A stretch of DNA of 64,000 bases, from NCBI GenBank assembly GCA_963823675.1, contig CAWGMT010000013.1:759177-823176 (forward strand), given 5' to 3'. Source of the DNA: an uncultured Isosphaeraceae bacterium (lineage in GTDB: Bacteria > Planctomycetota > Planctomycetia > Isosphaerales > Isosphaeraceae). Shown one piece after another: positions 39,860 to 62,732 of this stretch. A program made the translations under genes and the position numbers. Position 1 is the stretch's first letter; every line of letters begins with the position of its first letter. The notes under the pieces were generated by a model. It searched no databases. It had not been told where the DNA came from and saw nothing but the letters and a program-made list of their open reading frames with translations.

Positions 39860-42217
39860 CCCCCCCTTAGCACAGCGATTTTTTGGGGGCAGTTAATTTT
39901 CAAGTGGCCGGCTGCCCCTCGCGGGTATCCGCCGCCTCGGGCGGTTGCTGTCGAGCCGATCGCCGCAGATTCGGCCGGGTGACCCCTCTCTTGCCCGCGG
40001 ATCCTTTCGCCATCTCGATCGGGTTGATTGTCTTCCAAACCGCTGGTTGAACCCGATCGGAGTATACCGCCGAACTCGACGCGAAGCCGCCTGGGCACTG
40101 GTCCGGCTGCGCCCAAGGCCTGGCTGCAATTGAGGGGGCATTTCTGAGCCCCCTACGTCGCGGTCGATGATCCCCCGTCATTGCGCATCCATGTGTGTAA
40201 TATAAAATATGGCGGTATTCGCTCCGTATTACTTCAATTTTTCCCCTAATATTGACCAGATGTACAGCCATTAGTCCGCCATATTTTCGTTGACACATTC
40301 TGCGCACACTCTTATCCTCTATCCCAGGATCGTCAGCCCCCATCCCCTACCCGAGGACCCTCCCATGGACTTCGTGCTGCCCGATCGCCACATCGTCGGA
40401 CCTACTGGCCAACTCCTCGTCCCGGAAATCGACGAGATCACCCCACGGCTGTTTATGCTCGCGGAGGGAGAATGCGGAGCAGAAGGCGTCGCTAAGGCCG
40501 CCGCCAAGTACGGCTATTCAAGACAACGGTATTATCAATTGCTTAAACGATTTCAGAAGGAGGGGGCCCTCGCCCTCCAGTCTCAAAAACGCGGACCCAA
40601 AACCAACTACGTCCGCACCGATGAACTCGAACGCCAGGTCATTCGCCACCGCTTCCTCGATCCCGACGCCACCGTCGAGGTCATCGCCCAGAAGCTGCGC
40701 CAGACTGGCTTCATCGTCAGCACCCGCAGCGTGGAACGCGTCGTGGAGAAGTATGGCCTTCAAAAAAAAACTCTATCGCTACCGCCCTGACGCCCAGCCA
40801 CCTGTGGAGGCGCAGACCACCAAGACGCGGACGACCCCCGTTCCCTGCGACCCCCGGAGCATCGAACGGGGCGTGCGCCAGCTTCTCGCCGACAAGGCCA
40901 TGGGAAACCTGGCTGGCGTCTGGCTGCTGGCCCCCGAATTGCTCCGGTTGGGTGCCTGGGATCTGGTCTGCTCTTGGACCACCCAACGGCCTGATCGTGT
41001 CGAGCCGCGCCTGGCGTTGCAACTGATCCACGAAGCGGCTCTGTGCACAACGGGCTTGCGGCACCGCCGCACCGTGAACCAACACATCTTCGAGTTGGCC
41101 AACGGCCTACCCTTCCTCGCCACCGACATGGCCGTGCACGAGCTTCTCGGGGCTCGAACCGTGGTCGACAGTCAACGCCTCCAAGTCGCCTTGGGCAAGA
41201 TCCGCCGAACCTCGGGCGATTTCCAAGCCCGGCTGCTGGCCATCGATCCGCATCGCGTGCGCAGCTTCAGCAAGCGGCACATGCGCCGCCACCGCGACAA
41301 CCAGGCCGAACGCCCCACCAAGGTCGCCCCAACCTTCTTCGTGCTCGACGCCGACACGCACCAACCGGTTTGCTTCACCACCGCCACGTCCTCCCGCACT
41401 GCGACCACGGCGGCGGAGGAATTACTCGAATTGGCGGCCCGCATCCTCGACACCCAGCCCGGACAGACCCTCGTCCTGGTCGATGCGGAGCACTTCACCG
41501 TCGAACTGCTGGACAAGGTCAAGAGCGAGACCAACTTCGACCTGCTGGTGCCGATGTCCGATCAACGTAGCCGGCGCGAAACTGCAGGCGCTGCCACCGG
41601 AAACATTCCAACCCCGTTGGGCAGGTTATGCCACGGCGAAGATGGCCTACACCCCCCGGGACAGCCAAGCCGGACCGTTTTCCCAATATGTCCAGCGGCT
41701 GGGAGAACGGCCCGAAGAGTACCGCTTCAAGGCATTCCTCTCGACCCGAGACGGCGACGAGGTGGAGGGCTTGACTCTGGACTTTCCCATGCGCTGGCAC
41801 GTGGAGGAGTTCTTCAACGCCCATCAGGCGTTGGGCTGGGACCGAGCCGGGACATGCAATCTGAACATCAGGTACGGGCAGGCGTCGATGGCCTTGGTCG
41901 CTCAAGCAGCGACCGATCGGTTGCGTAAGCACCTGGGCCCAACAGCAGCGAGCTGGGATGCGGGGCACCTGTCCACGGCTTTCTTCGCTGGGCTCGAAGG
42001 AGACGTGCGGGTCGTCGAGGGAGATACCATCTTGGTAACGTACTACAATGCTCCGACCGACAACAACCTACGCCAAGTGTACCAGGACCTGCCCGCGAGG
42101 CTCCGAGCCGAGGGTGTCGACCCGCGTATCCCATGGCTGTATGGATTTAAACTCGACTTTTGCTTCCGCTGATGTCAAATTAACCAGCCCCAAAAAATCG
42201 CTGTTAGCAAGGGGGGG
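39860..42217 (+). mobile_element. insertion sequence (about 2.36 kb) with roughly 40-bp imperfect terminal inverted repeats ending in C7/G7 runs
   Basis: Left end CCCCCCCTTAGCACAGCGATTTTTTGGGGGCAGTTAATTTTCA. The reverse complement of the right end is CCCCCCCTTGCTAACAGCGATTTTTTGGGGCTGGTTAATTTGA. It contains the transposase ORFs and an AT-rich internal leader with a 12-bp inverted repeat (AAAATATGGCGG/CCGCCATATTTT). A TSD could not be resolved. Confidence 0.75.
40290..42172 (+). CDS. IS transposase (N-terminal HTH plus DDE domain with an RW.VEEFF motif, IS4-like superfamily) split over three reading frames
   Basis: ORF1 40290..40790 has an HTH (KYGYSRQRYYQLLKRFQ). ORF2 40621..41928 is +1 relative to ORF1 and joins across the A9 run at 40762-40770 (A8 would fuse them in frame). 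ORF3 41483..42172 is +1 again and carries RWHVEEFFNAHQALGW. The acidic residues FVLDAD and LVLVDAEHF are present. Confidence 0.65.
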
Positions 42218-45539: not shown

Positions 45540-45681
45540 CACGGTGGAAGCTGGCGAGGTGTCTGATTACAAATCGAGGGACCCAGTTCTTTCCACTTGG
45601 ATACACCATCGTAGACTCTTTCCCAGCCTTGCCCGGAGCTGCTCCGCGGCAATGGCTTTGAGGTAGCGCACCGGGGTAACC

Positions 45682-46318
45682 ATGCAAGAGAACCTTTTGC
45701 GCTTTATCGAACACGCGCGGCAGAAAGGGATGGACCACGCGACCACCTTCCTGCTCTTGCGGTCCACCGGCTGGAGGGAAAGGGAAATCGCCGAAGCCTT
45801 CGCCGCCCGCGAGCTGACGATGCCCATCCCGGAGCGAGCGGGCGCTGGCTCTGCAAGAGACGCTTTCTTTCACCTGTTGGCGTTCACGGCGCTTTACGCC
45901 TGGGCCATCAGCCTGATTTTTTTTGTTCTTCACTTACATTGAGTTCGCATTTCCCGATCCGGCGACGCGGACACGGACCTATGCCCTCGAAGCGGCCCTG
46001 TCGAGCATTCGTGCGTCGCTGGCGACACTCATCGTGTCTTATCCGCTCTTCTTGCTAGTCTGGTCGTTTCTGTTGCGCGAAGTCCGCATGTCTCCGGAAA
46101 AGGCAACGAGTGGTGTGCGGCGATGGTTATCGTTCTTGTCGCTGTTCGTCGGCGCCGTGACGATCCTGACGGATGTGATCGTCGTCGTCTACTACCTCGT
46201 GGAAGGGGACCTGACGGTTCGTTTTCTGCTCAAGGTAGTCGTTCTGTTGGTCATTGCCGGAGCGTTGTCAACCTATCTCGCGATGGTATTGCGCTCTGAA
46301 GCGGAGGCCAGGAAATGA
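45682..46318 (+). CDS. hypothetical polytopic membrane protein split by a frameshift inside a T8 run (45917-45924)
   Basis: ORFs 45682..45942 and 45923..46318 are in adjacent frames and overlap exactly at the T8 homopolymer. The hydrophobic helices continue across the junction. Confidence 0.4.
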
Positions 46319-46758
46319 CGCTCAGAGTCCACGCTGCGTTCGCAGTTGTCGTGTCGATCGTCGTCGCCTTCGCCGTTGCATGGGGGTTTTTGCTGGTCGG
46401 CTCGCCGGCACTTCGGCGGCTCGAGCAGTTTGACAAGCAACGTTTGGCGGATCTACAGACGATCGCCTGGGAGATTCAGTCGATGGTCGAGAATAAGAAT
46501 AAAAAGGGGACCCTCAAGGAGCCGCTCCCCAAGACGCTCGAAGAGGCGGCTGAGCGGGCGCGAGACCGAAGAGTGAATCCACGCGACCCCGAAACCAACC
46601 AGCCGTACCGTTATCGCGTCAAGAACGAAACAACCTACGAGCTGTGTGCCACCTTCGCGCGGCCACGCGAGTCGGACGCGGGCGTCTTTTGGAACCACCC
46701 CGCCGGCACGCATTGTTTCACGATCAAAGTTCTCGATCCGCCACCGTCGTTTCACTAA
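46315..46758 (+). CDS. hypothetical small membrane-anchored protein
   Basis: Its ATG overlaps the preceding stop (ATGA) and it has one N-terminal TM helix. Confidence 0.4.
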   Translation: MTLRVHAAFAVVVSIVVAFAVAWGFLLVGSPALRRLEQFDKQRLADLQTIAWEIQSMVENKNKKGTLKEPLPKTLEEAAERARDRRVNPRDPETNQPYRYRVKNETTYELCATFARPRESDAGVFWNHPAGTHCFTIKVLDPPPSFH

Positions 46759-47491
46759 GCCGTCGGTGGACGATTCGCCTGAAGTTCGGCGGCGTGATGG
46801 TCTCAATCCACCCGTCACACAATGTTCCTGAAGATACTACGGCGCACGAGCGGCTGGACGGTGCCCTGCACGAGTACAACCGACCCGTCGCAGGCGTGTG
46901 AGGGGGACAAGGCACCGTGAACCCTGACTCTCGGCTCGCACCGGCTAGACTTAGCAAGCTGGTGGCACTTTGCATATTGCTCGCGTGCACGTGCTCGAAC
47001 GCCCTTTCGGCGTCGCCGCCCGATGCCGCGGTTTTCCTTCGCGCCAACCAGGTCGGCTACTCAGCCAAAGACATGAAAGTCGCGATTGCGTTCTCCGAGT
47101 CACCGCTCCCCGCCAAGTTCGCCGTGGTCGCAGCCGATACCGGCGCATCGGTTTTCGAGGGCGAGACCGTATCGCTCCCCGGTGAACGGTGGGGGAAGTT
47201 CGACCAGTATGGAGAGCTTGACTTCACAGGGGTAACTCGGCCGGGCCGCTACGTGCTGCGGATGGGTGAGGCGAGATCGTTGCCCTTTGCCATCGGCGAG
47301 CTCGTGCTGGCGGGCTTGCCGGACCATTTTCTGGATTTCATGCGTCAACAGCGGTGTGGCTACAACCCATGGCTGGGCGTGAAGTGCCACCAGCTCGACG
47401 GCCGGACCGCCTTCGGTCCACTTCCCGACGGAACGGAGATCGACGCCCGTGGCGGCTGGCACGACGCGGGCGACTTGTTGAAGTACCAGCT

Positions 47492-48510
47492 GGGCCTGTA
47501 AGAAATATTGTGTCAACGTAGGGAATCGGGTATTCCTTCCTATCCTCTTTTCCTTACGGAGATTGTCGCATGGATGCGATTTTGACAGAAAAGGCCGAAC
47601 GGCTCGCGAAAGAGGTCGCGACACAGGCAAGGACGCTGGATGACCTCAACGGCCTCATCAAGCTGATGATGAAATCCGCGCTGGAACGCATGCTCGACAC
47701 CGAAATGGATGTGCATCTCGGACGTAAGAAGCTGCCTGGGCTGACTGCCGACTCTCCGGCTGAGGTGCCGGCGAACTGTGCTGCCGAGGCGCCTCCGAAG
47801 AAGGGGGCAAAGAATCGTCGCAATGGACATTCACACAAAACGGTACAGGGCGATCTTGGCGAAATCAGGGTCACGACGCCGCGCGATCGCGATGGCACCT
47901 TCGAGCCACAATTGATCCCCAAACATCGCCGTCGCTTGACCGGTTTCGACGAGAAGATTCTTGCTCTCTACGCCAAGGGTATGACCACTTGGGACATTCA
48001 GCAGATTGTGAAAGAACTCTATGATGTTGATGTTTCACCGACGCTGGTCTCAGAGATTACCACTGACCTCGACGCGCAAGTGACAGCGTGGCGCACCCGG
48101 CAGCTCGACGCCGTTCTGGCCAATCGTCTATTTCGACGGCATCGGGCGACAAATATCCGACCATCGTCAAGCAGTGGCGTTTGAAGTGGCCGGACATCGC
48201 GGCCATGTTCGAGTTCCCGCCTGCGATCCGCAAGGCGATCTACACGACCAACGCCATCGAGTCGGTCAACAGCGTGATTCGCAAGTTCACGCGGAACCGC
48301 AAGCAATACCCCAACGAGGAGTCAGCGCTGAAGCTCGTGTACTTGGCCATCCACGAAGCGCCGAAGAAGTGGACCATGCCGATCCCGAAGTGGAGAGAAG
48401 CGCTGAACCACTTCGCCATCATGTTCGAGGACCGACTGCCGACCCCAGCTCGCACTTGACCCTGCAAGTTCCGTACCCAACTGTGTTGACACAAAAAGAT
48501 TTACAAGCCC
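47492..48510 (+). mobile_element. internally deleted IS256-family element (about 1.0 kb) with 26-bp imperfect inverted repeats and an 8-bp TSD TACCAGCT
   Basis: IR-L GGGCCTGTAAGAAATATTGTGTCAAC. IR-R (reverse complement) GGGCTTGTAAATCTTTTTGTGTCAAC. TACCAGCT is found at 47484-47491 and again at 48511-48518. Confidence 0.85.
47570..48459 (+). pseudogene. IS256-family transposase remnant lacking the DDE catalytic core
   Basis: The N-terminal part (MMKSALERMLDTEMDVHLG..NGHSHKT..GEIRVTTPRDRDGTFEPQLIPKH) runs to ...LDAV followed by PIVYFDGI. It then jumps directly to the C-terminal module IVKQWRLKWPDIAAMFEFPPAIRKAIYTTNAIESVN..FTRNRKQYPNE..KKWTMPI. About 160 aa of the D-D-E core are missing. Confidence 0.85.
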
Positions 48511-49926
48511 TACCAGCTTACGTCGGGTAACGCCACGGCCCAGATGCTTCTGGCCTATGCGCTCGGCCGACGGTCCGCGCCGCGGGGTCCGCGCTTCGCC
48601 AACTGCGTCGAACGCGCTGGGCGATCCCGTTCCCAACGGTGTGCCCGACCTTCTCGATGAAGCTCGCTGGGGCCTCGACTGGATGCTCAAGCTTCACCCT
48701 GCGCCCGACCAGCTCTACCACCAGGTGGCCGACGATCGCGACCATGTCAGCTTCCGCCTGCCGCAAAACGAAATCGCGGACTACGGCTGGGGCAAGGGGG
48801 GCGCGCGTGTCGTCTATTTCGCGGACGGCCGCCCCCAGGGTTTGCAGCGGTTCAAGAGCGAGTCGACCGGCCTGGCGAACCTCGCGGGCCGATACGCCGC
48901 CGCCATGGCGCTGGCCTACCAGACGTGGAGGGACGACCCGGGTGCCCGCGCTTTCGCCGAGCGCTGCTTGAAGGCTGGCCGCGAGGTCTACGAGCTGGGC
49001 CGCACCCACGAGGGGTCGCAACAGGGCAATTCCTACAAGGCGCCCTACCGCTACGAGGAAACAACCTGGGCCGACGATATGGAATGGGGCGGGGCCGAGC
49101 TGTTCCGCGCCACGGGCGAGCGCCGCTACCTCGACCAAGCGAAACGCTACGCGCTGATGGCCGGCACCGACACGTGGATGGGCCGGGAACAGGCCAAGCA
49201 CTATCAGTTCTACCCGTTCCTGAACGTCGGCCACTTCCGGCTTTATGACCTGGTAGATGCCGACTTTCAGAAGGTTCTCGCCGGCTACTACCGCGACGGG
49301 ATCGACCGTTGTGTGCGAGCGGGCCAGACCAATCCGTACCGCCTCGGCGTGCCGTTCATCTGGTGCTCCAACAACCTTGTCGTCGCGCTCGTGGCACAGT
49401 GTTATTTGTATGAGCGAATGACCGGGGACGTACGCTACCACGGTTTCGCGGCGCGCAACCGCGACTGGCTGCTCGGCCGCAACCCGTGGGGATACACGAT
49501 GTTCACCGAGGTGGGCACTGTGTTTCCCAAGGACGTACACCTACAGACCACGAAGCTCACGGGGCGCTCGGTGCGCGGGGGATTGGTGGACGGGCCCGTC
49601 TATGAGCGCATCTTCCGGTCCCAGCGCGGTGTCTCGATCACCGAGCCGGACCCGCTCGCCCCCTTCCAGGACGAGCGGGCCGTCTATCACGACGACATCA
49701 AGGACTATGTGACCAACGAACCGACAATGGACGGCACGGCGTCGGCGATCCTGATGTGGGTGGCAGGGGATGAGCAAGGTCCAAGTGCGCGCCCGTAGGG
49801 ACCGGTGGCTCTTCGGGGTCCGCTAACAACTTCGTTGACTTTGGCAGCAGAGCAACGGATCGCAAGGCGTGGTATACTCGATCGAAGGATGGACATAGCG
49901 GTTAAATTCTGGCAGGGGGAGTCGCT

Positions 49927-50196
49927 ATGGAGGGGGCAAAAGCACGTCCGGGTCGGCGTCTTCGAAGCACAACCTTGAATCGGGAGCAGGCCGTGTATGA
50001 CGCCAGCCTGCCCCAATGGGTGCAAGAGCACGATTCCGCACACGTCCTCATCAAGGATGACGAGGTTGTCGGCTTCTATCCGACCCGCGAAGAAGCACTC
50101 GCCGCCGGCTACAGTCGGTTTGGGGTGGTGCCGCTGTTCGTCAAGAAGATCACGGCCGCCGAGCCCGTTTATTACATCCCCAACGTGACCCTCTGA
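49927..50196 (+). CDS. small hypothetical protein (89 aa) at the left edge of the low-GC islet
   Basis: ORF with a plausible coding pattern and no recognised domain. It lies upstream of the helicase-HNH gene. Confidence 0.3.
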   Translation: MEGAKARPGRRLRSTTLNREQAVYDASLPQWVQEHDSAHVLIKDDEVVGFYPTREEALAAGYSRFGVVPLFVKKITAAEPVYYIPNVTL

Positions 50197-50593
50197 TGGC
50201 CCGCTTCCGACTGCGGATCGGAGGGGACGGCCCGGTCATCTCCTGGCTTTGATCGGCCGTGATATGCTGGCCTACTGCCGGTTCTTCTACGACGGACCGA
50301 ATGGCGAGCTCATACTCGCGGTTTGACCGGTTCTTCCCCTATAGCTGGCGATGGGCAATCCGGGTCAACAGCCGCGCCAGTGACTTGGTGGCCTCGGGGA
50401 ACCGTTTGCAAAATTGCAGCAAGGCTTGAACGACCCCTGTGCGGCTCGAATCGCAGGAGGATACACTGGTCTGAGTGGGAGTTGCGGGCATCGTTGCAGA
50501 TGCCAAGAACCGGCTACCGTTCCGCTCGATGGTGCGAAAGACGAAACGACAACGCTCCGACCGCAGAGTCCAACAGCGTGGAGGTCGACTCTC

Positions 50594-53161
50594 ATGGGCT
50601 TTTCCCGGCTGAATTTGAACGATCTGCGAAACCAAGATGGCAGGAGAGAGCAGAAGACTCCCTTCGAGCATCAACTCGACGCTTTCAAAGCCCTCGACCG
50701 TACTTTTTCCTTCACGGATGCCAACGGCAAGGGCGCTTTGCTCGTCCTTCCTACCGGGGCCGGCAAGACGTTTACGACTGTCAAATGGCTTTGCGATCGG
50801 GCTCTTACGAGAAACATGAAGATTCTCTGGCTGGCACAGTCGTTTTACCTCCTCGACCAAGCGTTCAAGGAGTTTAACGACTACGCTGCCTGGATTCCTG
50901 AGCCCAGGGAAATGCTTCACATCCGCCGTGTGTCGAGCAACCCATCGCATCAGCTACCCCATTCCGTCGAGATAACGGATGACGTGGTAATCATGACCAC
51001 GCAAACAGCCATCAAAAACCTGCACTCGGACGCGACGGACCGAACGGGTAGCAGGGTTATCAGCAGTTTCAGACGGTTTGTCGAGGAGGCCAAGAATAAC
51101 GGTCTGTTCGTCGTGCTGGATGAGGCCCACCATGCCCCCGCTCACGGGTGCCGGCACTTGTTAGTTAACGAAGACGAATCCACGCCTGGAATTCGCCGGC
51201 TCGTGCCGAGCGCGTACCTTCTTGGCCTCACCGCTACGCCCACTTACACGGACGAGACAAGAAGAGGATGGCTCAGCAGGATTTTTGAGGCAGGGATTAT
51301 CCATAACGCGGACAAGACCGAGCTCATGGCTCAAGGCATCTTGGCAAGGCCCAAATACATCGAAAGGCCGACGGGGAGGGAGCTCATCGTTTCCGATGAT
51401 CTCTACAACCGCCTTGTCAGGGAACACAAGGACTTGCCTGAAAACGTGATCGAAATCCTCGCGGGCGATTCCCGGCGTAACGATTACATTGTGCAGGAAT
51501 ATGTCCAGAACAGGGATCGCTACGGGAAGACGATCATATTTGCCGACCGCTGGTTCCAGTGTGTCTACCTGAAGGAGAAGCTACTTGACAAAGGCGTCAG
51601 AGCCGATGCCATTTACTCGCACATCGATGCCGATCCCGGGTCCGCTGAGGCCCGAAACAAGCGGACGGCAAGCGACAACGAGCGCATCTTGAACGAATTC
51701 AAGCACGGCAAGGACAGCTCGGGGCGGGACACTCTTGAGGTACTGATAAATGTAAGAATGCTGACGGAAGGAGCCGATGTACCTAGCGTCCGAACAGTTT
51801 TCCTGACCCGCCAGACAACGAGTGCCATCCTGATGACCCAAATGATCGGGCGAGCTTTGCGTGGCAGAAGGGCAGGCGGAGGCGATGAGGCGAACATCGT
51901 CCTGTTCATCGATAACTGGAAACGACTTATCGATTGGGCTACGCCGGCGTCGCTTGACGGCGGCACAGCGCAGGAGCGAGTGATCCGCGGTTACTATCCG
52001 CTGGAATACATTTCGATCCGCTTGGTGGAGGAACTTACTCGCCAGGTCAACAGTGGCGGCGATATTCCCTCTCCGCCTTTCTCTCAGATCGTTCCTGTCG
52101 GATGGTTTCAGACAGAAATCGTTGTGGCGACTGAAGACGCTGCCGACGAAACGCAGTCGTTCACCGAGTTCGTGATGGCCTATGAGGGTACAAAGCCGAA
52201 ATTCGACGCCTTCATTGAACATTTCCAGCGCAGCGTACCGGAAGGATGGGACAAAGAGTCCCTGTCATTCGAATGGATGATGGCGCAGACACAGCGCTGG
52301 GTGGCCAAGTTTTTTGACCTCGAAGCAGATCAACTCGGCGGCGGACTGGAGATGAACCTCGCACGGATCGCCCGCCACATCGCGCAGACGCAAACAGCGC
52401 CGCCTTTTCACTCGTTCGAGGATCGCCCCAAATATGATTTGGACGAGTTAGCCCGACGCCGCCTTAACAATAGCCCGGTCGAGAACAGCACATTTTTGGA
52501 ATCAGAGTTCACCAGACCGGGGAATTTATGGAGGGTTTTCTACAAGACAATCGACCGTTTCCACACGGCATTCGACGGAGCGGTAAGGCGAGCTCTGCGC
52601 CCAGGACGAGGCATGTCGCCCACGACCTTGACCTCGAGCGAAAAACGCAGCAAGCGGGAACTATCGGAGGCCGAGAAAGAGCAAGTCAAGCGGCGGGACA
52701 GCTACGCGTGCTTGTGCTGCGGTGCGTCTGGCAGAGGCGTTCGGCTCCAGATTGACCACATCGTTTCGTACAACATCGGAGGGGAAACGAGCGTAGAGAA
52801 TTCCCAGACGCTTTGCAGCGTTTGCAACCGAGAAAAGAAAATCAACGAGCTGAACTTCCTTCAAACGGCGACGCTGCTGCCCGGGCCGCCCGAACCGGAA
52901 CTGCTCACCCGCTCCGGCACGGAAGACGTCAAACGGACGATCACGAGACTTGTCAACCACTTCTACCGGTGCCGGGCCGTCTCTGAAGTTCGGATGCACA
53001 CGCGGTCCACTGGCCGATTCTACTCGACGTGGGAGATCGAACTGTTCGCTGGCAACAAGCCGAAGTGGCTGAATGATCACAAGTGGTCTCTAGTCGACCA
53101 CATCCAGGAGAATTTCGGCTGCTCGCATGTTACTGACATCAGAATTGTTGGCGCGAGGTAA
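50594..53161 (+). CDS. SF2 helicase (ResIII-like DEAH N-terminal domain plus helicase C-terminal domain) fused to a C-terminal HNH endonuclease; candidate single-gene defense factor
   Basis: Start ATG at 50594 with GGAGG 12 nt upstream (the ORF track begins earlier at 50414). Walker A LVLPTGAGKTF. DEAH box VVLDEAHHA. Motif VI region TQMIGRALRG. The HNH reads CLCCGASGRGVRLQIDHIVSYNIGGETSVENSQTLCSVCN. GC is markedly lower than the surrounding sequence. Confidence 0.85.
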   Translation: MGFSRLNLNDLRNQDGRREQKTPFEHQLDAFKALDRTFSFTDANGKGALLVLPTGAGKTFTTVKWLCDRALTRNMKILWLAQSFYLLDQAFKEFNDYAAWIPEPREMLHIRRVSSNPSHQLPHSVEITDDVVIMTTQTAIKNLHSDATDRTGSRVISSFRRFVEEAKNNGLFVVLDEAHHAPAHGCRHLLVNEDESTPGIRRLVPSAYLLGLTATPTYTDETRRGWLSRIFEAGIIHNADKTELMAQGILARPKYIERPTGRELIVSDDLYNRLVREHKDLPENVIEILAGDSRRNDYIVQEYVQNRDRYGKTIIFADRWFQCVYLKEKLLDKGVRADAIYSHIDADPGSAEARNKRTASDNERILNEFKHGKDSSGRDTLEVLINVRMLTEGADVPSVRTVFLTRQTTSAILMTQMIGRALRGRRAGGGDEANIVLFIDNWKRLIDWATPASLDGGTAQERVIRGYYPLEYISIRLVEELTRQVNSGGDIPSPPFSQIVPVGWFQTEIVVATEDAADETQSFTEFVMAYEGTKPKFDAFIEHFQRSVPEGWDKESLSFEWMMAQTQRWVAKFFDLEADQLGGGLEMNLARIARHIAQTQTAPPFHSFEDRPKYDLDELARRRLNNSPVENSTFLESEFTRPGNLWRVFYKTIDRFHTAFDGAVRRALRPGRGMSPTTLTSSEKRSKRELSEAEKEQVKRRDSYACLCCGASGRGVRLQIDHIVSYNIGGETSVENSQTLCSVCNREKKINELNFLQTATLLPGPPEPELLTRSGTEDVKRTITRLVNHFYRCRAVSEVRMHTRSTGRFYSTWEIELFAGNKPKWLNDHKWSLVDHIQENFGCSHVTDIRIVGAR

Positions 53162-53520
53162 AGAGTTCAAAGCGCCCAGCGCCGCGCAGGCCGGCAGTGG
53201 GAGAGCAGCCGATTACGTCAAGCAAAGGAGCGCTCCAAGGTCCCCTTCCAGTCGCGTGACCGATCGGGGTCAAGTGTGGACGTGCCGTTCTGCTCTCTTG
53301 TTACTGATCTCGAGCGCAGTGCCGTATTTCGGGCCTCATAGACAACGTAACGGCCGGACTCCTCCCGGCTCGGCACAGACGATGACGCCGCTGACGGAAT
53401 CTGCGTTCCCAATCGGGGTTTCTTTCGTCGATTGGAACGGGCAACACGAATGATAGGGGGGGGGGATCGGCTTCGATAGACCACGGAGGCGGAGCGTGGC
53501 TTAGTTTGGCAGCAGAGCCT

Positions 53521-55035: not shown

Positions 55036-57401
55036 TTACTTGATCGGCGCGACTTTCACAGCGAGGGGAGTGGTCGGAACGGGGTAATCCTTCTTGTTGA
55101 CCTGAAAGATCAGGGCGAGCTGGGTGTTCGCGGATGTGGGTGCCGCCTTGGGCTCGGCGGCGATCTTCACGGCAAAGGCCGCGGCCGCGCCGCTGAGTGT
55201 GACTGGATCGGCCTTCACTCCAGCCGGCAAACCATTGATCCGAACGGTCACGGGGCCGTCGAACGTTCCCTTGCGCACCAGCTTTCCCTTGACCAGGGCG
55301 GTGGAGCCCGGCTTGACCTCGACGCTGGCCGCGGCCAGCTCGGCCGCGACCGGATGCACCACGCTCAAGGTCACGGCCGGAACCGCGATGGTCCGGTCCG
55401 CGCCGGCAAATTTGCCTTTGGCCAGAAGCGCAATGGTCATGGTTCCAAGCACCGTCTCGACCGGGCGCTGACCGTCACGCTGCCCTCGAGCAATTTCGCG
55501 GCGATCGGCGCGCCGGTGACGGTCACTCCCGGAGGCAGGCTCAGTCCTGAGATCGCGATCGGCGCATCGGCTCCTTTGGTCCGCGCGACCTTGATGGGGA
55601 TCTTCGCGCTAAAGCCGCGAGGAACCTCGATCGGCTGGGCCGGAGTGTCGAGCGCCACGGCCGTGGGAAGGGCCGGCGCGGCCACCAGCCCATACTGGGT
55701 CATCGCGCCGGCCGGGGGAGTCGCTTGCGGGGTGAATACCAATAACTGCGAGGCAAGCCGCTCGAAAGGACCATCGGTGCGCTGGCCCCGCCCCACCAGC
55801 TTGATCGCAGTAGCGGGAAACGCGGCGTCGGCGCTCGCCGAGACCGTGATGACGCCGGTCGTCTGGCCGGCGGCGACGCTCCCGGGCCGAACGCTCAGAC
55901 CCGCCGGGGGCTCGGCGACGGTCAGGGTAATCGGCCCGCTATAGCCCCTCCGCCGGACTGTCGCACTGATCGCCGCCGACCCTCCGCGCGGCACGCTCAC
56001 CTGGGGTTCGCTCAAGACGAGCTCGAAATCGGGCAGGAGCGGCTCGACCACGATCCGGTAGGGGAAGCCGACACCGCCCCGCTTTTCAAGGTCGCGAATG
56101 ACCAGCGTGATCTCATTCGTACCGCCGGGAATCGTCAGGTCGAACGACGGATCGGCCAGGACGATCGGCGGGGCCTGCTGACCATTGCGCGGGGGCCGGG
56201 CGATCGTCGTGTCGTCGGCATTCGCCAGAACACCGCCTCCCTTGCCGAGCACCTGGACAACTCCGTCGAGATTCGAGCCCAGGTCGGCGGCCTTTACCGT
56301 GATCCGCAGTCGCTCGCCGGGCGTCGCCACCACGCCGAAGCGGTCTTCGTCGCCGGGCGGGTCGAGCCGGCCGTTGAAAACGACCGGTGCAACGGCCCGA
56401 ACGGGCTGGTCCGAGCGATCCGCTGGCTCGCGCAACTCGGGATACGACGAGACAACCAGCGGCGGGAGCGATTCCACGTCGTAGTTCGGCTCGCCGGCCT
56501 TGACGCCGTCGATCATCGCGCTCGTGATCCGAGGCAGGAATAGCTCGGTGCCTGGGATGGGTTGAACGGACGCCGCGGCGATCTTGGTCCCCGCGAGCGA
56601 CCCGCCGCGAAGCTCAAGCCCGAGCGTTTCCCCCTGCCGGCCTCCCAGCGGATAGACCTCCTCGGCCATCGGCAAGTTGCCGATCACCAGCCGATAGCCC
56701 GGCCGGCTCGCTCCCTGATAGCGTGAGTCGGAGATCTCGACGACGTAATCCGTATCCTCGGGCAAAACGGCGGCGAGTCGCGCGTCGGTCACCAGGCCGG
56801 GCGAGTCGTCGGCCGAGGCGATATAGGTCCGCGTGGCCGAGGCCTTCGTCAACCGAATGGTGGGGTCGATAGCCGACCCGATCCGCGCGCACTGGGCGTC
56901 GACCACGATCTTCTGCCCCTTCTTGCCGTGAAAGCGGAAGAAGTCGACGTCGTTGCCCGCAACTTGACCCTCCACCACCAGCGGCGGGTCGGGAATCGGC
57001 TGGGCTGCCTCGAAGACGCTATTGTCTTCCTTCTCGCTGACCTGGGGCAGTTGACCGACCGCGAACAGGAAGGGGTTGGAGATCCCGTCGTCGGTCTGAA
57101 CCCGGATTGGATAAACCCCGACCGCGACGTCGCCCGCGATCGTCACCTTGGGCTTCCAGCTCGATGCGCTCTGCCCGGCCGATGGCGACTCGATCTTGAA
57201 CGGGAATGGAGCGATCAGCCGGGGGTTCCCCGCAAGCTCGGAGCCGCTGATCGAAAGCTCGGTGGCCACGCCCCGCTGCACACCATGGGGCGTGATGTCG
57301 CCGATCTTCGGAGGCGCCGCAAGACACTGGCTGGAAAAGGCAACCAGAGTGAAAAACGTCAGCACAAACGTGGCTGGCGTTAGACCATGTTGAGGACGCA
57401 T
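55036..57401 (-). CDS. large secreted repeat protein with a PPC/pre-peptidase-C-terminal-like domain; -1 frameshift at a CCGGG run near 55460-55466
   Basis: ORFs 55437..57401 (signal peptide, DVDFFRFHGKKGQKIVVDAQC..DPTIRL, PPC-like) and 55036..55452 are contiguous if one C/G is added. Ig-like repeat character throughout. Confidence 0.55.
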
Positions 57402-59323: not shown

Positions 59324-59881
59324 ATGTCCACGGCATCTGTGACCACGCCCTTGATGACCGCCGAAGAGTTCGCCGAGCGGCCCGATCCGGGCTATCCCGA
59401 GGAGCTCGTTCGAGGAAGGATCGTCCCAATGTCGGTACCCGATCGACGCCACGGTCAAGTTTGCGGGCACGCGTACATCCTGATTCGCTCGTTCGTGGAC
59501 GCCCACGACCTCGGCCATGTCTTGTGTAACGACTCCGGCGTCATCACGGAGCGCGACCCGGACTGCGTGCGCGGGGCAGACGTCGCCTACTACAGCTTCA
59601 ACCGCTTGCCGCGTGGGCCGCTGCCGCGGTCTTATGGGCCGGAAGTGCCCGAGCTGGTGGTCGAGGTTCGCTCGAAAGGCGACAAGTGGCCCAAGGTGCT
59701 CGCCAAGGTGGTGGAATACCTCGACGCGGGCGTGGCCGTCGTCGTCGTTCTGGACGACGAGCGCCAAGTCGCTCAAGTCTTCACGGCTGACAGCACCCGA
59801 TTTCTCGGGCCTGACGACGAGCTGACGATCCCCGAGGTCCTGCCCGGCTTCGCCGTCGCCTTACGGCGGTTCTTTGAGTGA
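59324..59881 (+). CDS. Uma2-family (DUF820) PD-(D/E)xK putative endonuclease, paralog 1
   Basis: LTAEEFAERPDPGYPEELVRGRIV..PELVVEV are Uma2 motifs. It is about 70 percent identical to the next gene. Confidence 0.8.
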   Translation: MSTASVTTPLMTAEEFAERPDPGYPEELVRGRIVPMSVPDRRHGQVCGHAYILIRSFVDAHDLGHVLCNDSGVITERDPDCVRGADVAYYSFNRLPRGPLPRSYGPEVPELVVEVRSKGDKWPKVLAKVVEYLDAGVAVVVVLDDERQVAQVFTADSTRFLGPDDELTIPEVLPGFAVALRRFFE

Positions 59882-60046: not shown

Positions 60047-60607
60047 ATGTCCACGGCATCAGTGCCCACGCCCTTGCTGACCGCCGAAGAGTTCGCCGAA
60101 CGGCCCGACCCGGGCAATCCCGAAGAGCTTGTACGAGGAAGGATCGTGCTCATGCCCATGCCCAAACCGAGACACGGGCAAATCTGCGGTCGAGCATACT
60201 TCTTGTTCCGCGTACACGTCGATGCTCAGGACTTGGGCCATTTGCTCAGCAACGACTCGGGCGTGATCACCGAGCGAGGTCCCGACACGGTCCGCGGTGC
60301 TGACATCGCCTTCTATAGCTTTGCCCGCGTTCCCAAGGGGCCGTTGCCCGATCGCTATCTGGACATCGCGCCCGACCTGGTTGTCGAGGTCCTCTCACCG
60401 GGCGACCGCTGGCCGAAGGTGCTGCGCAAGGTGGCGGAGTATCTCGATGCCGGGGTAACCGTCGTCTTGGTGCTTGACGACCAGCGCCGACAAGCGCAGC
60501 TTTACCGAGCCGACGGGACAACACGCCTGCTCGACGCCGAAGAGGAGCTTTCCATTCCCGATCTGCTCGGCGATTTCCGCGTTCGGGTCGGGCGGTTCTT
60601 CGAGTAA
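60047..60607 (+). CDS. Uma2-family (DUF820) PD-(D/E)xK putative endonuclease, paralog 2 (tandem duplicate)
   Basis: Same architecture and length as 59324..59881. The upstream leaders are also similar. Confidence 0.8.
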   Translation: MSTASVPTPLLTAEEFAERPDPGNPEELVRGRIVLMPMPKPRHGQICGRAYFLFRVHVDAQDLGHLLSNDSGVITERGPDTVRGADIAFYSFARVPKGPLPDRYLDIAPDLVVEVLSPGDRWPKVLRKVAEYLDAGVTVVLVLDDQRRQAQLYRADGTTRLLDAEEELSIPDLLGDFRVRVGRFFE

Positions 60608-60916: not shown

Positions 60917-61046
60917 TGATTTCGCCCAGCGTTGCCGTTGATTCTTCCCCGAAGGAATTCGGCTTGTCGCTCATGGCCGGGCGCGCGAAACTGGATGGAT
61001 CATGTCTCTTTGATCGGGGTTCAATTCCCCAAGAGGAGGGCTAATC

Positions 61047-62225
61047 ATGATCCGGCCGGTTCGCCCGCGCAGTGGGTTTACGTTGATCGAGCTCTTGGTC
61101 GTCATCGCCATTATCGGGGTGTTGATCGCCTTGTTGTTGCCCGCCGTTCAGTCGGCTCGTGAGTCGGCGCAACGCGCGCAATGCATCAACAACTTGAAGC
61201 AACTGGGCCTGGCCGTGCAGAGCTATGTCACGGCGACGAATGTTCTGCCGGCTCAGACACTCGATAACGTCATGCTTCCCAACGGAATGGGAAACGTGAA
61301 CTGGTTCACGTCCTGGACCGCCAGCATCCTTCCCCACCTCGAACAGCAGCCTGCGTTCAACGCGCTCAACTTCAATGTCCCCATGATGGAACTGGCGCCA
61401 CCGATCCTGGGCGCGAACACGACCGTGGGGCTCATGACGATTGCGACTTTGCTTTGCCCGTCCGAGAGCGTGACCAAGTCGCCGAGCTACGCGCTTTCGG
61501 GGGCCACGCCGGCCGGCTACACGGCTCAATTCGGCGTGGCGAACTACGCCGGCAATTACGGCGGGCCGCCCACGATCCGCGCATGCAGCGGCGCGATCGT
61601 CCCTGTCAAAGGCAACAAGTCCCTCGTCTTCAACCTGATGTCGGCGGCGAACTTGACCTCGCCGCTCTCGGCCGGGCCCGTTCGCATGCAGATGATCACC
61701 GACGGCGCCGCGAGCACGGCACTTTTCAGCGAGCACCTGCTGTCGAGCACCCCTCCCTATATTGCGAATGATTCGAGCGTCACCCCGGGAGGACGGAACG
61801 CCAGGCGCGGGCTCTTCCCGGTTCCCATCACGGTCACGCTGGATCAGGCGAGTACCGCCAGCGCGCAGGCGTTCGTCAGTGCGTGCCAGAGCCTGCCGGC
61901 GGGCACTCCGGTGCTCGCGGGCATCGGTTTCGGGGCCCAGTGGCTCATGAGCATCGACTTCGCCCCGGCCAACAACGCCTACACCCATGTGATGGCCCCC
62001 AACAGCATCTCCTGTACCGGGTCTAACGACCCATCGGGCTACTTTTCGAGCGCCAACGGCGGATTTGGCGCCGCGATCTCCGCGACCAGCAACCATCCGG
62101 GCGGGGTCAACGTGGGATTCTGCGACGGCTCGGTGAAGTTCATCAACAATTCCATCGCCCTTCAGACCTGGTGGGGGCTGGGGACACGAAACGGCCATGA
62201 GATCATCGGCGCCGACACGTACTGA
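61047..62225 (+). CDS. DUF1559 protein with a type IV pilin-like (prepilin cleavage/methylation) N-terminus and an H-X9-DG C-terminal motif
   Basis: GFTLIELLVVIAIIGVLIALLLPAVQSARE and the C-terminal SNHPGGVNVGFCDGSVKFI. Confidence 0.85.
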   Translation: MIRPVRPRSGFTLIELLVVIAIIGVLIALLLPAVQSARESAQRAQCINNLKQLGLAVQSYVTATNVLPAQTLDNVMLPNGMGNVNWFTSWTASILPHLEQQPAFNALNFNVPMMELAPPILGANTTVGLMTIATLLCPSESVTKSPSYALSGATPAGYTAQFGVANYAGNYGGPPTIRACSGAIVPVKGNKSLVFNLMSAANLTSPLSAGPVRMQMITDGAASTALFSEHLLSSTPPYIANDSSVTPGGRNARRGLFPVPITVTLDQASTASAQAFVSACQSLPAGTPVLAGIGFGAQWLMSIDFAPANNAYTHVMAPNSISCTGSNDPSGYFSSANGGFGAAISATSNHPGGVNVGFCDGSVKFINNSIALQTWWGLGTRNGHEIIGADTY

Positions 62226-62311
62226 GCCGAGGCTGCGAGCATGCGCCTCCATGGGACGGTGGCCCACTTGATTTAGCGTTGAATACGGAAGGAAACTTCT
62301 TGGGCGAAGAG

Positions 62312-62667
62312 CGGTGGGTACTGAGGCCCGCCCCACTGGGAGAATCAAGGGATCCTGTAGAGGGGCGGGCGTCTCTGCCCGCCTCCGGAGCTTTCTTTCG
62401 CGGTGGGTACTGAGGCCCGCCCCACTGGGAGAATCAAGGGATCCTGTAGAGGGGCGGGCGTCTCTGCCCGCCTCCGGAGCTTTCTTTCGCGGCGGGCCCT
62501 GAGGCCCGCCGCGCTAAGAGAATCAAGGGATCCTCTAGTGGGGCGGGCGTCTCTGCCCGCCTCCGGAACTTTCTTTCGCGGCGGGCACTGAGGCCCGCCC
62601 CACTGGGAGAATCAACGGATCCTCTAGTGGGGCGGGCACTGAGGCCCGCCTCCGGAGCTTTCTTTCG
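62312..62667 (+). repeat. four perfect-length tandem copies of an 89-bp hairpin-forming repeat between convergent genes
   Basis: Units at 62312-62400, 62401-62489, 62490-62578 and 62579-62667. Copies 1 and 2 are identical. Copies 3 and 4 carry substitutions. Each has a GCCCGCCCC..(about 28 nt)..GGGGCGGGC stem. Confidence 0.9.
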
Positions 62668-62732
62668 TTGTGCAACGCGCAGTAACACGCTCGCGGGGAT
62701 TGGCGATGTCCAGGGCAGCGCGAGCCAACTTG

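What the first reader, a model, noticed from the sequence alone, without database searches (positions are those of the whole stretch)
49840..53518. Low-GC islet carrying a stand-alone SF2-helicase-HNH nuclease fusion, bounded by 14-bp direct repeats
The segment between the GH9 gene and the cytochrome-WD40 gene has much lower GC than its flanks. It contains one large gene (50594..53161): an N-terminal ResIII/DEAH helicase (Walker A LVLPTGAGKTF, DEAH VVLDEAHHA, motif VI QMIGRALRG), a roughly 250-aa linker of unknown function, and a C-terminal HNH nuclease (CLCCG...QIDHIVSYNIGGETSVENSQTLCSVCN). An 89-aa small ORF lies upstream. An exact 14-bp direct repeat TTTGGCAGCAGAGC flanks the segment: one copy at 49840-49853, just after the GH9 stop, and one at 53505-53518, abutting the stop of the downstream gene. 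This is consistent with att-like boundaries of an integrated element. The helicase-nuclease single-polypeptide architecture resembles antiphage factors (Hna-like or type-III-Res-like logic), but no methyltransferase partner is present. It could be an uncharacterised defense gene.
Basis: partly seen in the sequence, partly recalled or inferred. Interest (0 to 1): 0.75.

Follow-up and report, generated by a model that had tools for sequence, protein, structure and literature searches.

The report
Stand-alone helicase–HNH nuclease gene, DRA0131 family
The gene is real and intact: a conserved one-protein DNA motor plus DNA cutter that is probably an uncharacterised anti-phage nuclease, but it belongs to a family first noted in Deinococcus in 2001, and the 14-bp "boundary repeats" are a chance match, not the ends of an integrated element.

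Summary
The sequence observation holds. ORF 50594-53161 encodes an 855-aa protein with an SF2 helicase (ResIII + Helicase_C), an unassigned middle domain of about 190 aa, an HNH nuclease and a KH-like C-terminal domain. All catalytic residues are invariant in 42 homologues.

The "att" reading fails:
- The window holds 8 independent exact direct repeats of 14 nt or more at 1-10 kb spacing; chance predicts 6.3.
- A sister-species locus carries the same gene in the same place without either repeat copy.
- The window has no integrase and no tRNA gene.

The gene does sit in a variable spot. More distant relatives join DUF1501 directly to the PSCyt-WD40 gene. The variable block is therefore about 8 kb (45540-53520), a patchwork that also includes GH9.

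The protein aligns end to end with D. radiodurans DRA0131 (37% identity, E 4e-170), the "Rad25-like helicase + McrA/HNH" fusion noted in 2001. No functional study of DRA0131 turned up in my searches. It matches no PADLOC 2023 model over its full length and is not Hna.

It is always solitary, with no conserved partner and no methyltransferase. Two homologues lie inside clear defence islands, next to DISARM and next to type I R-M with a GmrSD-like gene.

Best reading: an ATP-driven restriction-like defence nuclease (about 0.5). Main rival: a genome-maintenance helicase-nuclease (about 0.3).

The parts
50594..53161 (+). Helicase-HNH gene, 855 aa, DRA0131 family. The start at ATG 50594 agrees with the N-termini of the homologues.
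   Evidence: Under purifying selection against the L002 orthologue: 91% aa identity, dN/dS 0.14. End-to-end 37% identity to D. radiodurans DRA0131.
50657..51244 (+). Motor lobe 1 (ResIII, residues 22-217), with Walker A GAGKT (55-59) and DEAH (176-179).
   Evidence: Pfam PF04851, E 9e-17. The motif residues are invariant in 42 homologues.
51488..51862 (+). Motor lobe 2 (Helicase_C, residues 299-423), with motif VI QMIGRALRG.
   Evidence: Pfam PF00271. A profile search of the PDB finds SauUSI, LlaGI/LlaBIII and RadD as the closest solved motors. Foldseek finds XPB, RadD, SauUSI and HsdR.
52019..52597 (+). Middle domain (about residues 476-668): two beta-hairpins plus a helical bundle. It is specific to this family and has no assigned function.
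52709..52837 (+). HNH nuclease (residues 706-748): zinc ligands C706, C709, C741, C744 and catalytic D721, H722, N736, N745.
52928..53158 (+). C-terminal alpha/beta domain (about residues 779-855), assigned as type-II-KH-like; possibly binds nucleic acid.
49927..50196 (+). 89-aa gene, first gene of a separate two-gene cassette. Not a partner of the helicase.
   Evidence: Conserved in L002 (76% aa identity, dN/dS 0.27). The pair with a retropepsin-like gene recurs in L013 with no helicase nearby. Absent beside helicase homologues in all other contexts.
50197..50326 (+). Remnant of the retropepsin-like aspartyl-protease gene (148 aa in L002). A 316-bp internal deletion leaves it frameshifted.
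   Evidence: Alignment A1, BLAST, and weak Pfam aspartyl-protease hits on the L002 copy.
49840..49853 (+). Left copy of the 14-mer TTTGGCAGCAGAGC. Chance repeat.
   Evidence: It lies in a stretch of about 45 bp that is absent from L002.
53505..53518 (+). Right copy of the 14-mer, 2 bp from the stop codon of the convergent PSCyt-WD40 gene. Chance repeat.
   Evidence: The homologous L002 position differs at several bases. L002 has no copy within 3 mismatches at either boundary.
45540..53520 (.). The real variable interval between DUF1501 (ends 45539) and the convergent PSCyt-WD40 gene (stop at 53521). It holds a DUF5671 pair, the GH9 gene split by an IS, the 89-aa/protease cassette and the helicase-HNH gene.
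   Evidence: In metagenome contigs L090 and L091, DUF1501 and PSCyt-WD40 lie about 115-130 bp apart, with OEP and p654 on the outer sides as in the window. That short junction holds a GC-rich hairpin.

Best explanation
The gene encodes a single-polypeptide, ATP-driven DNA translocase-nuclease of the DRA0131 family. It most likely acts as a stand-alone restriction-like defence enzyme that needs no methyltransferase.

Proposed mechanism:
1. The ResIII-type SF2 motor loads on DNA and translocates using ATP.
2. The family-specific middle domain and the KH-like C-terminal domain select the substrate. Candidates are a foreign DNA modification or a replication or recombination intermediate.
3. The zinc-stabilised HNH site cuts one strand. 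Double-strand breaks would need two molecules, by dimerisation or collision, as in other translocating restriction enzymes.

Shown here by computation: an intact motor and nuclease, purifying selection, a solitary gene, accessory status and defence-island neighbours.

Inferred only: translocation, the substrate, the trigger, and how the host's own DNA is spared.

The gene is an old resident of a plastic chromosomal spot. It is not the cargo of a recently integrated element.
For: - All helicase motifs and all HNH catalytic and zinc residues are invariant in 42 homologues of 50-91% identity. dN/dS against the sister-species orthologue is 0.14.
- By sequence profile, the closest solved motors are restriction translocases, SauUSI (type IV) and LlaGI/LlaBIII (type ISP), together with RadD. 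By fold they are XPB, RadD, SauUSI and HsdR.
- The gene is solitary in about 11 independent contexts, with no conserved neighbour and no DNA methyltransferase.
- The 77%-identical homologue lies between a UvrD/PD-(D/E)XK gene and a class 1 DISARM operon (DrmD E 3e-196, DrmMI), with HEC-05 upstream. The 69% homologue follows a type I R-M operon that has an embedded GmrSD-like gene. A third homologue lies in an island with RES, Nmad3 and SNase-LTD genes.
- The gene is missing from the same junction in relatives L090 and L091.
- Its GC is below that of the flanks in 8 of 9 hosts.
- One variant, P0197, has lost the catalytic Asp-His of the HNH site (QIDH becomes MVSR) and has gained an N-terminal PLD nuclease. 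This is the kind of nuclease swap seen in restriction enzymes.
- No family member was found in phage records or among the best 80 viral-contig matches.
Against: - There is no experimental evidence for any member of the family.
- Only 2-3 of about 11 contexts are defence islands. The rest lie among housekeeping genes.
- In Nostocaceae the downstream synteny is shared between genera, which suggests stable vertical inheritance.
- The family is unusually well conserved for a defence gene: mean column identity is 60%, with 50-55% identity between phyla.
- No recognisable modification-reading domain (SRA, PUA, DUF3427) is present.
- The solved HNH domain closest in sequence belongs to ZRANB3, a replication-fork repair enzyme.
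- No PADLOC model covers the whole protein.
Confidence: 0.5

Rival explanations
1. It is a genome-maintenance helicase-nuclease, as the historical annotation of DRA0131 as 'Rad25/XPB-like' in DNA-repair inventories implies. On this reading it processes stalled forks, bubbles or damaged DNA. It would be a fused analogue of archaeal XPB-Bax1 or of eukaryotic ZRANB3 (annealing helicase plus HNH).
For: - The top fold matches include XPB in TFIIH and RadD. RadD is the best NCBIfam and best PDB-profile hit.
- The HNH domain is closest in sequence to the ZRANB3 HNH (E 7e-4).
- DRA0131 is listed with the repair genes of D. radiodurans (PMC2587704, PMC5867870, PMC10614293).
- Conservation is high and dN/dS is low.
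- The downstream synteny is shared in Nostocaceae.
- Most contexts are housekeeping genes.
Against: - All hits to repair families fall far below their family cut-offs: RadD 47 bits against 720, rad25 14 bits against 329.
- I see no XPB-style RED tripeptide after motif III. The sequence reads TATPTYTDE (the RED motif is recalled from my own knowledge of XPB).
- The distribution is patchy. The gene is absent at the junction in L090 and L091 and is reported absent from Deinococcus rubellus (PMC10614293).
- GC is below the host's in 8 of 9 contexts.
- Two homologues are embedded in R-M and DISARM islands.
- The listing of DRA0131 as a repair gene rests on domain similarity alone.
Confidence: 0.3
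2. One reading: segment 49840-53518 is an integrated mobile islet, and the 14-bp direct repeats are its att-like ends.
For: - The 14-mer is exact, and both copies lie in the intergenic DNA that flanks the segment.
- The gene has lower GC than its neighbours.
- The locus is variable among relatives.
Against: - There are 8 such repeat pairs in the window against 6.3 expected.
- L002 and L003 carry the same segment in the same place with neither copy.
- The empty junctions in L090 and L091 carry no copy.
- The window has no tRNA gene. No integrase was found among the ORFs listed and scanned in the interval.
- The interval missing from relatives also includes GH9 and starts at DUF1501, not at 49840.
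- The segment contains two unrelated modules, the 89-aa/protease cassette and the helicase gene.
Confidence: 0.03
3. It is an orphan or degenerate restriction subunit, a type III Res or type I HsdR left behind after loss of its Mod or HsdMS partners.
For: The Pfam ResIII domain is present, and there are partial PADLOC hits to type I, type III and type IIG enzymes.
Against: - Those hits cover only motor segments, at E 1e-4 to 1e-11.
- The nuclease is HNH at the C-terminus, not PD-(D/E)XK.
- The same solitary 850-aa architecture is conserved in more than 140 clusters at 50% identity and is under purifying selection. That does not fit a decaying orphan.
- No Mod or HsdMS partner lies beside it in any context except L005, where a complete type I system already has its own HsdR.
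Confidence: 0.05

Closest known systems
Deinococcus radiodurans DRA0131 ('Rad25-like helicase fused to McrA/HNH endonuclease', Makarova et al. 2001, as cited in PMC10614293)
   Same: The domain order and length match (870 against 855 aa). The alignment runs end to end at 37% identity, E 4e-170, and includes the middle and C-terminal domains. Both have 10 Cys and two CxxC motifs, as tabulated for DRA0131 in PMC5867870. Both are solitary genes.
   Different: Different phylum, and only 27% identity in the C-terminal half. DRA0131 is filed as a repair gene on domain similarity. I found no functional study of it in the searchable literature.
SauUSI-type type IV restriction enzymes (PLD nuclease + SF2 motor + DUF3427 reader)
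   Same: A single polypeptide with an ATP-dependent motor of the same class; SauUSI gives the longest helicase match in the PDB profile search (residues 173-463). No methyltransferase. One family variant (P0197) even has the PLD-helicase arrangement.
   Different: Here the nuclease is a C-terminal HNH, not an N-terminal PLD. There is no DUF3427 or other known modification reader. Dependence on DNA modification is untested.
Hna (single-protein helicase-nuclease abortive-infection system; PMC13381803)
   Same: A protein of about 850 aa with an N-terminal SF2 helicase and a C-terminal nuclease, acting alone.
   Different: Hna has a DinG-like helicase and a PD-(D/E)XK nuclease that acts as a 3'-5' ssDNA exonuclease stimulated by phage SSB. 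The window protein has a ResIII-type motor and an HNH nuclease. No named Hna chain appeared among its PDB sequence or fold matches.
ZRANB3 (eukaryotic SNF2 annealing helicase with an HNH nuclease)
   Same: A helicase fused to an HNH nuclease. The HNH domains are the closest pair in the PDB sequence search (E 7e-4).
   Different: The ZRANB3 motor is SNF2-type and the protein has PCNA- and ubiquitin-binding modules. Here the SWI2_SNF2 Pfam hit is just below its cut-off (26.6 against 26.7 bits), and the rest of the protein is unrelated.
PbeA (HKD nuclease + SF2 helicase of the PbeABCD / CxC-ABC-DndE systems; PMC10853773)
   Same: It is the best PADLOC hit (E 5e-14), with a motor of the same class fused to a nuclease.
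   Different: The hit covers only residues 13-235. PbeA carries an HKD nuclease and works in a four-gene operon. No pbeBCD-like genes lie next to any family member examined.

Membership tests
DRA0131 family (ResIII-type helicase + family-specific middle domain + HNH + C-terminal domain) | End-to-end homology to DRA0131, including the non-Pfam middle and C-terminal regions | tested here: met
   BLASTP gives 37% identity over 875 columns, E 4e-170, covering residues 20-855. The Deinococcus protein has the same Pfam domain set, and its 10 Cys and 2 CxxC motifs match the published DRA0131 entry (PMC5867870).
DRA0131 family | Intact ATPase and HNH catalytic residues | tested here: met
   GxGKT, DEAH, TATP, motif VI, C706/C709/C741/C744 and D721/H722/N736/N745 are invariant in 42 sequences.
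Hna | C-terminal PD-(D/E)XK nuclease and a DinG-like SF2 helicase (PMC13381803) | tested here: not met
   The nuclease is HNH. No named Hna or DinG chain appeared among the PDB sequence or fold matches.
Type III R-M Res subunit | An adjacent Mod methyltransferase and a PD-(D/E)XK nuclease at the C-terminus | tested here: not met
   No Mod gene in the window or in about 11 homologue contexts. The PADLOC REase_III hit is E 6e-4 over 52 residues only.
Type I R-M HsdR | Reaches the HsdR family score; has an N-terminal PD-(D/E)XK nuclease; has HsdM and HsdS partners | tested here: not met
   TIGR00348 scores 23.9 bits against a cut-off of 284.6, and EcoAI 44.8 bits against 550. There are no hsdMS genes nearby. 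In L005 the type I operon has its own HsdR.
SauUSI-type type IV restriction enzyme | PLD nuclease and a DUF3427 modification-reading domain | tested here: not met
   Neither domain is found by Pfam. Only the motor matches.
SauUSI-type type IV restriction enzyme | Cleavage depends on modified DNA and on NTP hydrolysis | not testable with these tools
   This needs biochemistry or phage and plasmid assays.
XPB/Rad25 | Reaches the rad25 family score; RED motif after motif III | tested here: not met
   TIGR00603 scores 13.9 bits against a cut-off of 328.7. The sequence after TATP is TYTDE, not RED (the motif definition is from my own knowledge).
RadD (YejH) | Reaches the RadD equivalog score | tested here: not met
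   NF053632 scores 47.4 bits against a cut-off of 720.
Integrated element with att direct repeats | Repeats conserved at the ends of the element in relatives, a single copy at empty sites, and an integrase or tRNA target | tested here: not met
   (no copies in L002, L003, L090 or L091). (no tRNA gene). No integrase among the ORFs listed and scanned in 45.5-53.5 kb. (the repeat count equals chance).
Known anti-phage systems in PADLOC-DB v2.0.0 | A full-length match to a system model | tested here: not met
   The best hits are partial: PbeA over residues 13-235, type IIG over 15-98 and type IV over 168-461. Libraries released after 2023, such as the current DefenseFinder, were not available.

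The most novel reading that the evidence does not exclude
DRA0131-family proteins, with at least 140 clusters at 50% identity across Planctomycetota, Cyanobacteria, Chloroflexota and Deinococcota, may be a widespread single-gene anti-phage or anti-plasmid system that has not been recognised. On this reading their fold-orphan middle domain is a new kind of sensor that tells foreign from host DNA without a methyltransferase. The 25-year-old 'DNA repair' label on DRA0131 would then be wrong.
Probability: 0.35. Interest if true: 0.6.

Novelty: new member of a known kind. Interest (0 to 1): 0.38.

Why it matters
- If the defence reading is right, a compact one-gene helicase-HNH system would join Hna, SauUSI and similar enzymes. 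It is common in environmentally important phyla that are poorly covered by defence catalogues built mostly on Proteobacteria and Firmicutes.
- It would also correct the long-standing repair annotation of DRA0131.
- The middle domain has no solved relative and would be the place to look for a new way of recognising foreign DNA.
- If the repair reading is right, the protein is a bacterial fused counterpart of XPB-Bax1 or ZRANB3. That would interest specialists but would not be a surprise.
- The 'repeat-bounded islet' part of the finding is ordinary. It shows how easily a 14-mer can mislead in 64 kb of GC-rich sequence.

Tried and rejected
- **Empty site through GH9:** GH9 homologues of 72-85% aa identity occur in many Planctomycetota and Verrucomicrobiota genomes, but apart from L002 and L003 none has the helicase or an orthologous PSCyt-WD40 gene nearby. 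GH9 is itself mobile and could not define an empty site. The p654 side did.
- **A phage origin:** the best 80 viral-contig matches cover only the helicase domain at 23-30% identity. The C-terminal half finds nothing in 50,697 phage records.
- **A plasmid origin:** the only matches are two Deinococcus replicons.
- **The 78-aa ORF called downstream in L002:** a 1-nt indel against the window breaks the frame, so it is probably not a gene. The conserved 250 nt there shows no Rfam hit and no excess folding energy (z +1.1 and -0.1).
- **Promoter and terminator scans:** nothing above the shuffled background.
- **Literature:** searches for helicase-HNH defence systems found no described system with this architecture. 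The Makarova 2001 paper itself is not in the library.

Full report
**1. What is in the sequence**

Pfam assigns three domains:
- ResIII at residues 22-217, E 9e-17;
- Helicase_C at residues 299-423, E 2e-10;
- HNH at residues 706-748, E 3e-10.

The 89-aa ORF (49927-50196) and the two exact copies of TTTGGCAGCAGAGC (49840 and 53505) are also there.

The GC claim is only partly right. The helicase ORF has GC 0.558 and GC3 0.68. The window average is 0.621, and the neighbouring genes have GC 0.63-0.675 and GC3 0.75-0.83. The 50-52 kb bin is the lowest 2-kb bin in the window. However, the dip is confined to the ORF, and the left part of the proposed islet has a GC close to the window average.

**2. 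The 14-bp repeats are a chance match**

- The window contains 8 independent exact direct repeats of 14 nt or more spaced 1-10 kb apart. Second-order Markov simulations give a mean of 6.3.
- A sister-species locus is 86% identical in nucleotides across the helicase region, and its protein is 91% identical. It occurs on two metagenome contigs, L002 and L003, and has the same gene order: DUF1501, GH9, small ORF, protease, helicase-HNH, then the convergent PSCyt-WD40 gene.
- That locus has neither copy of the 14-mer. The left copy falls in a stretch of about 45 bp that is absent from L002, and the right copy is diverged at several positions.
- Across 2.5 Mb of fetched loci, the word (up to 2 mismatches) occurs at these boundaries only in a 99.9%-identical contig of the same strain, L001.
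- The window has no tRNA gene. No integrase turned up among the ORFs I listed and scanned in the interval.

**3.

Two metagenome contigs from more distant relatives, L090 and L091, are 53-63% identical in protein. They place DUF1501 (57% identical) tail to tail with PSCyt-WD40, about 115-130 bp apart, across a GC-rich hairpin. OEP and p654 lie on the outer sides, exactly as in the window.

The whole interval 45540-53520 is therefore extra. It is a patchwork of four modules:
- a frameshifted DUF5671 gene plus a 147-aa ORF, both absent from L002;
- the GH9 gene, which has homologues of 72-85% identity scattered through Verrucomicrobiota and Planctomycetota with, apart from L002 and L003, no shared gene order;
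- the 89-aa/protease cassette;
- the helicase-HNH gene.

In this strain GH9 is split by a 1019-bp IS256-family deletion derivative. It has an 8-bp target duplication (TACCAGCT), and contig L001 lacks it.

**4. The 89-aa ORF is not a partner of the helicase**

- In L002 its stop overlaps the start of a 148-aa gene that gives weak retropepsin-type aspartyl-protease hits.
- The same pair, with a DTGAS motif, occurs in L013 with no helicase nearby.
- In the window the protease gene has a 316-bp internal deletion.
- No homologue of the 89-aa protein lies beside the helicase in any other context examined.

**5. The protein family**

A search of 5.8 billion proteins returned more than 100 full-length relatives of about 855 aa at 50-91% identity. 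They come from Planctomycetota, many Nostocales, Leptolyngbya and Anaerolineae.

A 42-sequence alignment has 60% mean column identity along the whole length. The invariant residues include the following:
- Walker A, DEAH, TATP and motif VI of the motor;
- the four zinc cysteines C706, C709, C741 and C744;
- the HNH residues D721, H722, N736 and N745;
- many residues in the unassigned regions.

I searched the C-terminal half alone (residues 441-855) against 1.84 billion representative proteins. It found 143 clusters with E below 1e-30. In the full-length hits it lies at about positions 420-850 of proteins of about 850 aa; shorter hits look like fragments. This is one coherent architecture.

Rare variants add other domains:
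- an N-terminal protein kinase;
- C-terminal Sel1 repeats;
- C-terminal HEAT repeats;
- a C-terminal GyrA-C domain.

One variant, P0197, has replaced the catalytic Asp-His of the HNH site (QIDH becomes MVSR). It keeps the zinc cysteines and has gained an N-terminal PLD nuclease. This is a nuclease swap.

**6. Structure**

AlphaFold models have mean pLDDT 80 for the whole protein and 88.6 for residues 473-855. They show:
- a two-lobed SF2 motor;
- a disordered linker (residues 445-475);
- a middle domain of two beta-hairpins and a helical bundle;
- the HNH domain;
- a C-terminal alpha/beta domain.

Whole-model Foldseek hits are XPB in TFIIH, RadD, SauUSI, EcoR124I HsdR and RIG-I-like helicases, all at E of about 1e-13. 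A sequence-profile search of the PDB ranks RadD, SauUSI and the type ISP enzymes LlaGI and LlaBIII first.

**7. Link to the literature**

A tblastn search of plasmid and secondary-replicon records found a D. radiodurans chromosome II gene. The protein has 870 aa, the same Pfam domains, 10 cysteines and two CxxC motifs. Those counts match the entry 'Rad25, DRA0131' in PMC5867870.

DRA0131 is described as an endonuclease domain fused to a RAD25-like helicase domain (PMC10614293, citing Makarova et al. 2001). It is listed as XPB/ERCC3-like and YejH-like in PMC2587704.

It aligns with the window protein from residue 20 to 855 at 37% identity, E 4e-170. The family has therefore been known as a domain fusion since 2001. 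I found no functional study of it.

**8. Comparison with known defence systems**

- PADLOC-DB v2 gives only partial, motor-level hits: PbeA over residues 13-235, then type IIG, type IV and type I enzymes.
- NCBIfam gives nothing near a family cut-off: RadD 47 against 720 bits, EcoAI 45 against 550, rad25 14 against 329.
- Hna is a DinG-like helicase with a PD-(D/E)XK nuclease (PMC13381803), so the resemblance is one of design, not membership.
- HmaA is a Snf2 helicase with a PD-(D/E)XK nuclease.
- PbeA is an HKD nuclease with an SF2 helicase, working inside a four-gene system.

**9. Genomic contexts**

I examined about 11 independent contexts. The gene is always solitary, with no conserved neighbour and no DNA methyltransferase partner.

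Two contexts are clear defence islands:
- L004 (77% identical): HEC-05, a UvrD/PD-(D/E)XK gene, the helicase-HNH gene, then DrmD (E 3e-196), DrmMI, a NYN gene and a DEAD+MZB helicase. This is class 1 DISARM.
- L005 (69% identical): HsdM, HsdS, a GmrSD-like gene, HsdR, YgjP, the helicase-HNH gene, and later Nmad3.

A third context, L093, is a conflict-type island with RES, NUDIX, Nmad3, pEK499_p136 and SNase-LTD genes.

The others lie among housekeeping genes, sometimes beside Uma2 or Fic genes. In Nostocaceae the downstream block (DUF1257, AAA, a 115-aa gene) is shared by Halotia and Nostoc CENA543, which suggests vertical inheritance there.

The gene's GC is below that of its flanks in 8 of 9 hosts, while its GC3 tracks the host from 0.21 to 0.87. 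This fits an accessory gene that has been resident for a long time.

No family member was found in phage records or among the best viral-contig matches.

**10. Selection and an oddity**

Against L002, dN/dS is 0.14, so the gene is functional. Its dS is 0.32, against 0.52-0.80 for the flanking genes. The ORF is 90-92% identical in nucleotides, against 81-87% on either side. Either the gene was exchanged between the two lineages after they split, or composition affects the estimate. I leave this unexplained.

**11. Verdict**

The most likely function is a stand-alone, ATP-driven, restriction-like defence nuclease (about 0.5). The motor translocates, the middle and KH-like domains choose the substrate, and the HNH site cuts. 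Only the integrity of the parts, the solitary and accessory nature of the gene, and its neighbours are shown. Translocation, the trigger and the sparing of host DNA are inferred.

The main rival is a genome-maintenance helicase-nuclease (about 0.3). The att-bounded islet (about 0.03) and the orphan Res subunit (about 0.05) are essentially excluded.

The window gene is a new member of a family that is known but functionally uncharacterised. Interest is moderate.

Noticed in passing
window 47492-48510 (target duplications at 47484-47491 and 48511-48518): A 1019-bp IS256-family (Transposase_mut) element splits the GH9 cellulase gene into 46917-47501 and 48557-49798. It has imperfect terminal inverted repeats of about 27 bp and an 8-bp target duplication, TACCAGCT. 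Its transposase lacks the central part (about profile positions 167-297), so it cannot move on its own. A 99.9%-identical contig of the same strain (L001, GCA_052915805.1) lacks the insertion.
   Followed up: yes
window 50197-50326: The retropepsin-like aspartyl-protease gene that follows the 89-aa ORF (148 aa in L002) carries a 316-bp internal deletion with a TCAT microhomology at the junction (50236-50239). Only a frameshifted remnant is left.
   Followed up: yes
window 45540-46815: About 1.3 kb between DUF1501 and GH9 is absent from the sister locus L002. It holds a DUF5671 membrane-protein gene, apparently frameshifted at a T-run near 45920 (ORFs 45682-45942 and 45923-46318), and a 147-aa ORF (46315-46758) with no Pfam hit.
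   Followed up: partly
window 55036-57401 (-): The ORFs of 138 aa and 654 aa overlap at 55437-55452. They correspond to a single 788-aa gene in L002, so the window has either a frameshift or a sequencing error.
   Followed up: partly
window 39860-42216: A second likely insertion sequence: 40-nt inverted repeats (80% complementary) at 39860-39899 and 42177-42216 flank an ORF (40621-41928) with a weak DDE_Tnp_1 hit.
   Followed up: partly
window 59324-59881 and 60047-60607 (+): Two tandem Uma2-family (putative restriction endonuclease) paralogues, about 75% identical over 300 nt. Uma2 genes also lie directly beside helicase-HNH homologues in three cyanobacterial loci (L097, L180, L182).
   Followed up: no
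window 62222-62755: A tandem array of an 89-nt unit (about 6 copies, 61-100% identity to the reference copy). It overlaps long ORFs on the minus strand (61041-62348 and 62733-63974).
   Followed up: no
window 50611-53010 against L002: The helicase-HNH ORF is less diverged from the sister species (90-92% nucleotide identity, dS 0.32) than the flanking genes (81-87%, dS 0.52-0.80). This hints that the gene was exchanged between the lineages after they split. Unexplained.
   Followed up: partly
protein P0197: This family variant has lost the catalytic Asp-His of the HNH site (QIDH becomes MVSR) but keeps the zinc cysteines. It has gained an N-terminal PLD nuclease and a C-terminal DUF5679. Other variants add a protein kinase, Sel1 repeats, HEAT repeats or a GyrA-C domain.
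   Followed up: partly
window 53190-53420: The non-coding stretch downstream of the helicase stop codon is about 85-90% conserved with L002, more than other intergenic DNA at this locus. The ORFs predicted there are not conserved (a 1-nt indel breaks the frame), there is no Rfam hit and there is no excess folding energy. A run of 10 G lies at about 53456-53465.
   Followed up: partly
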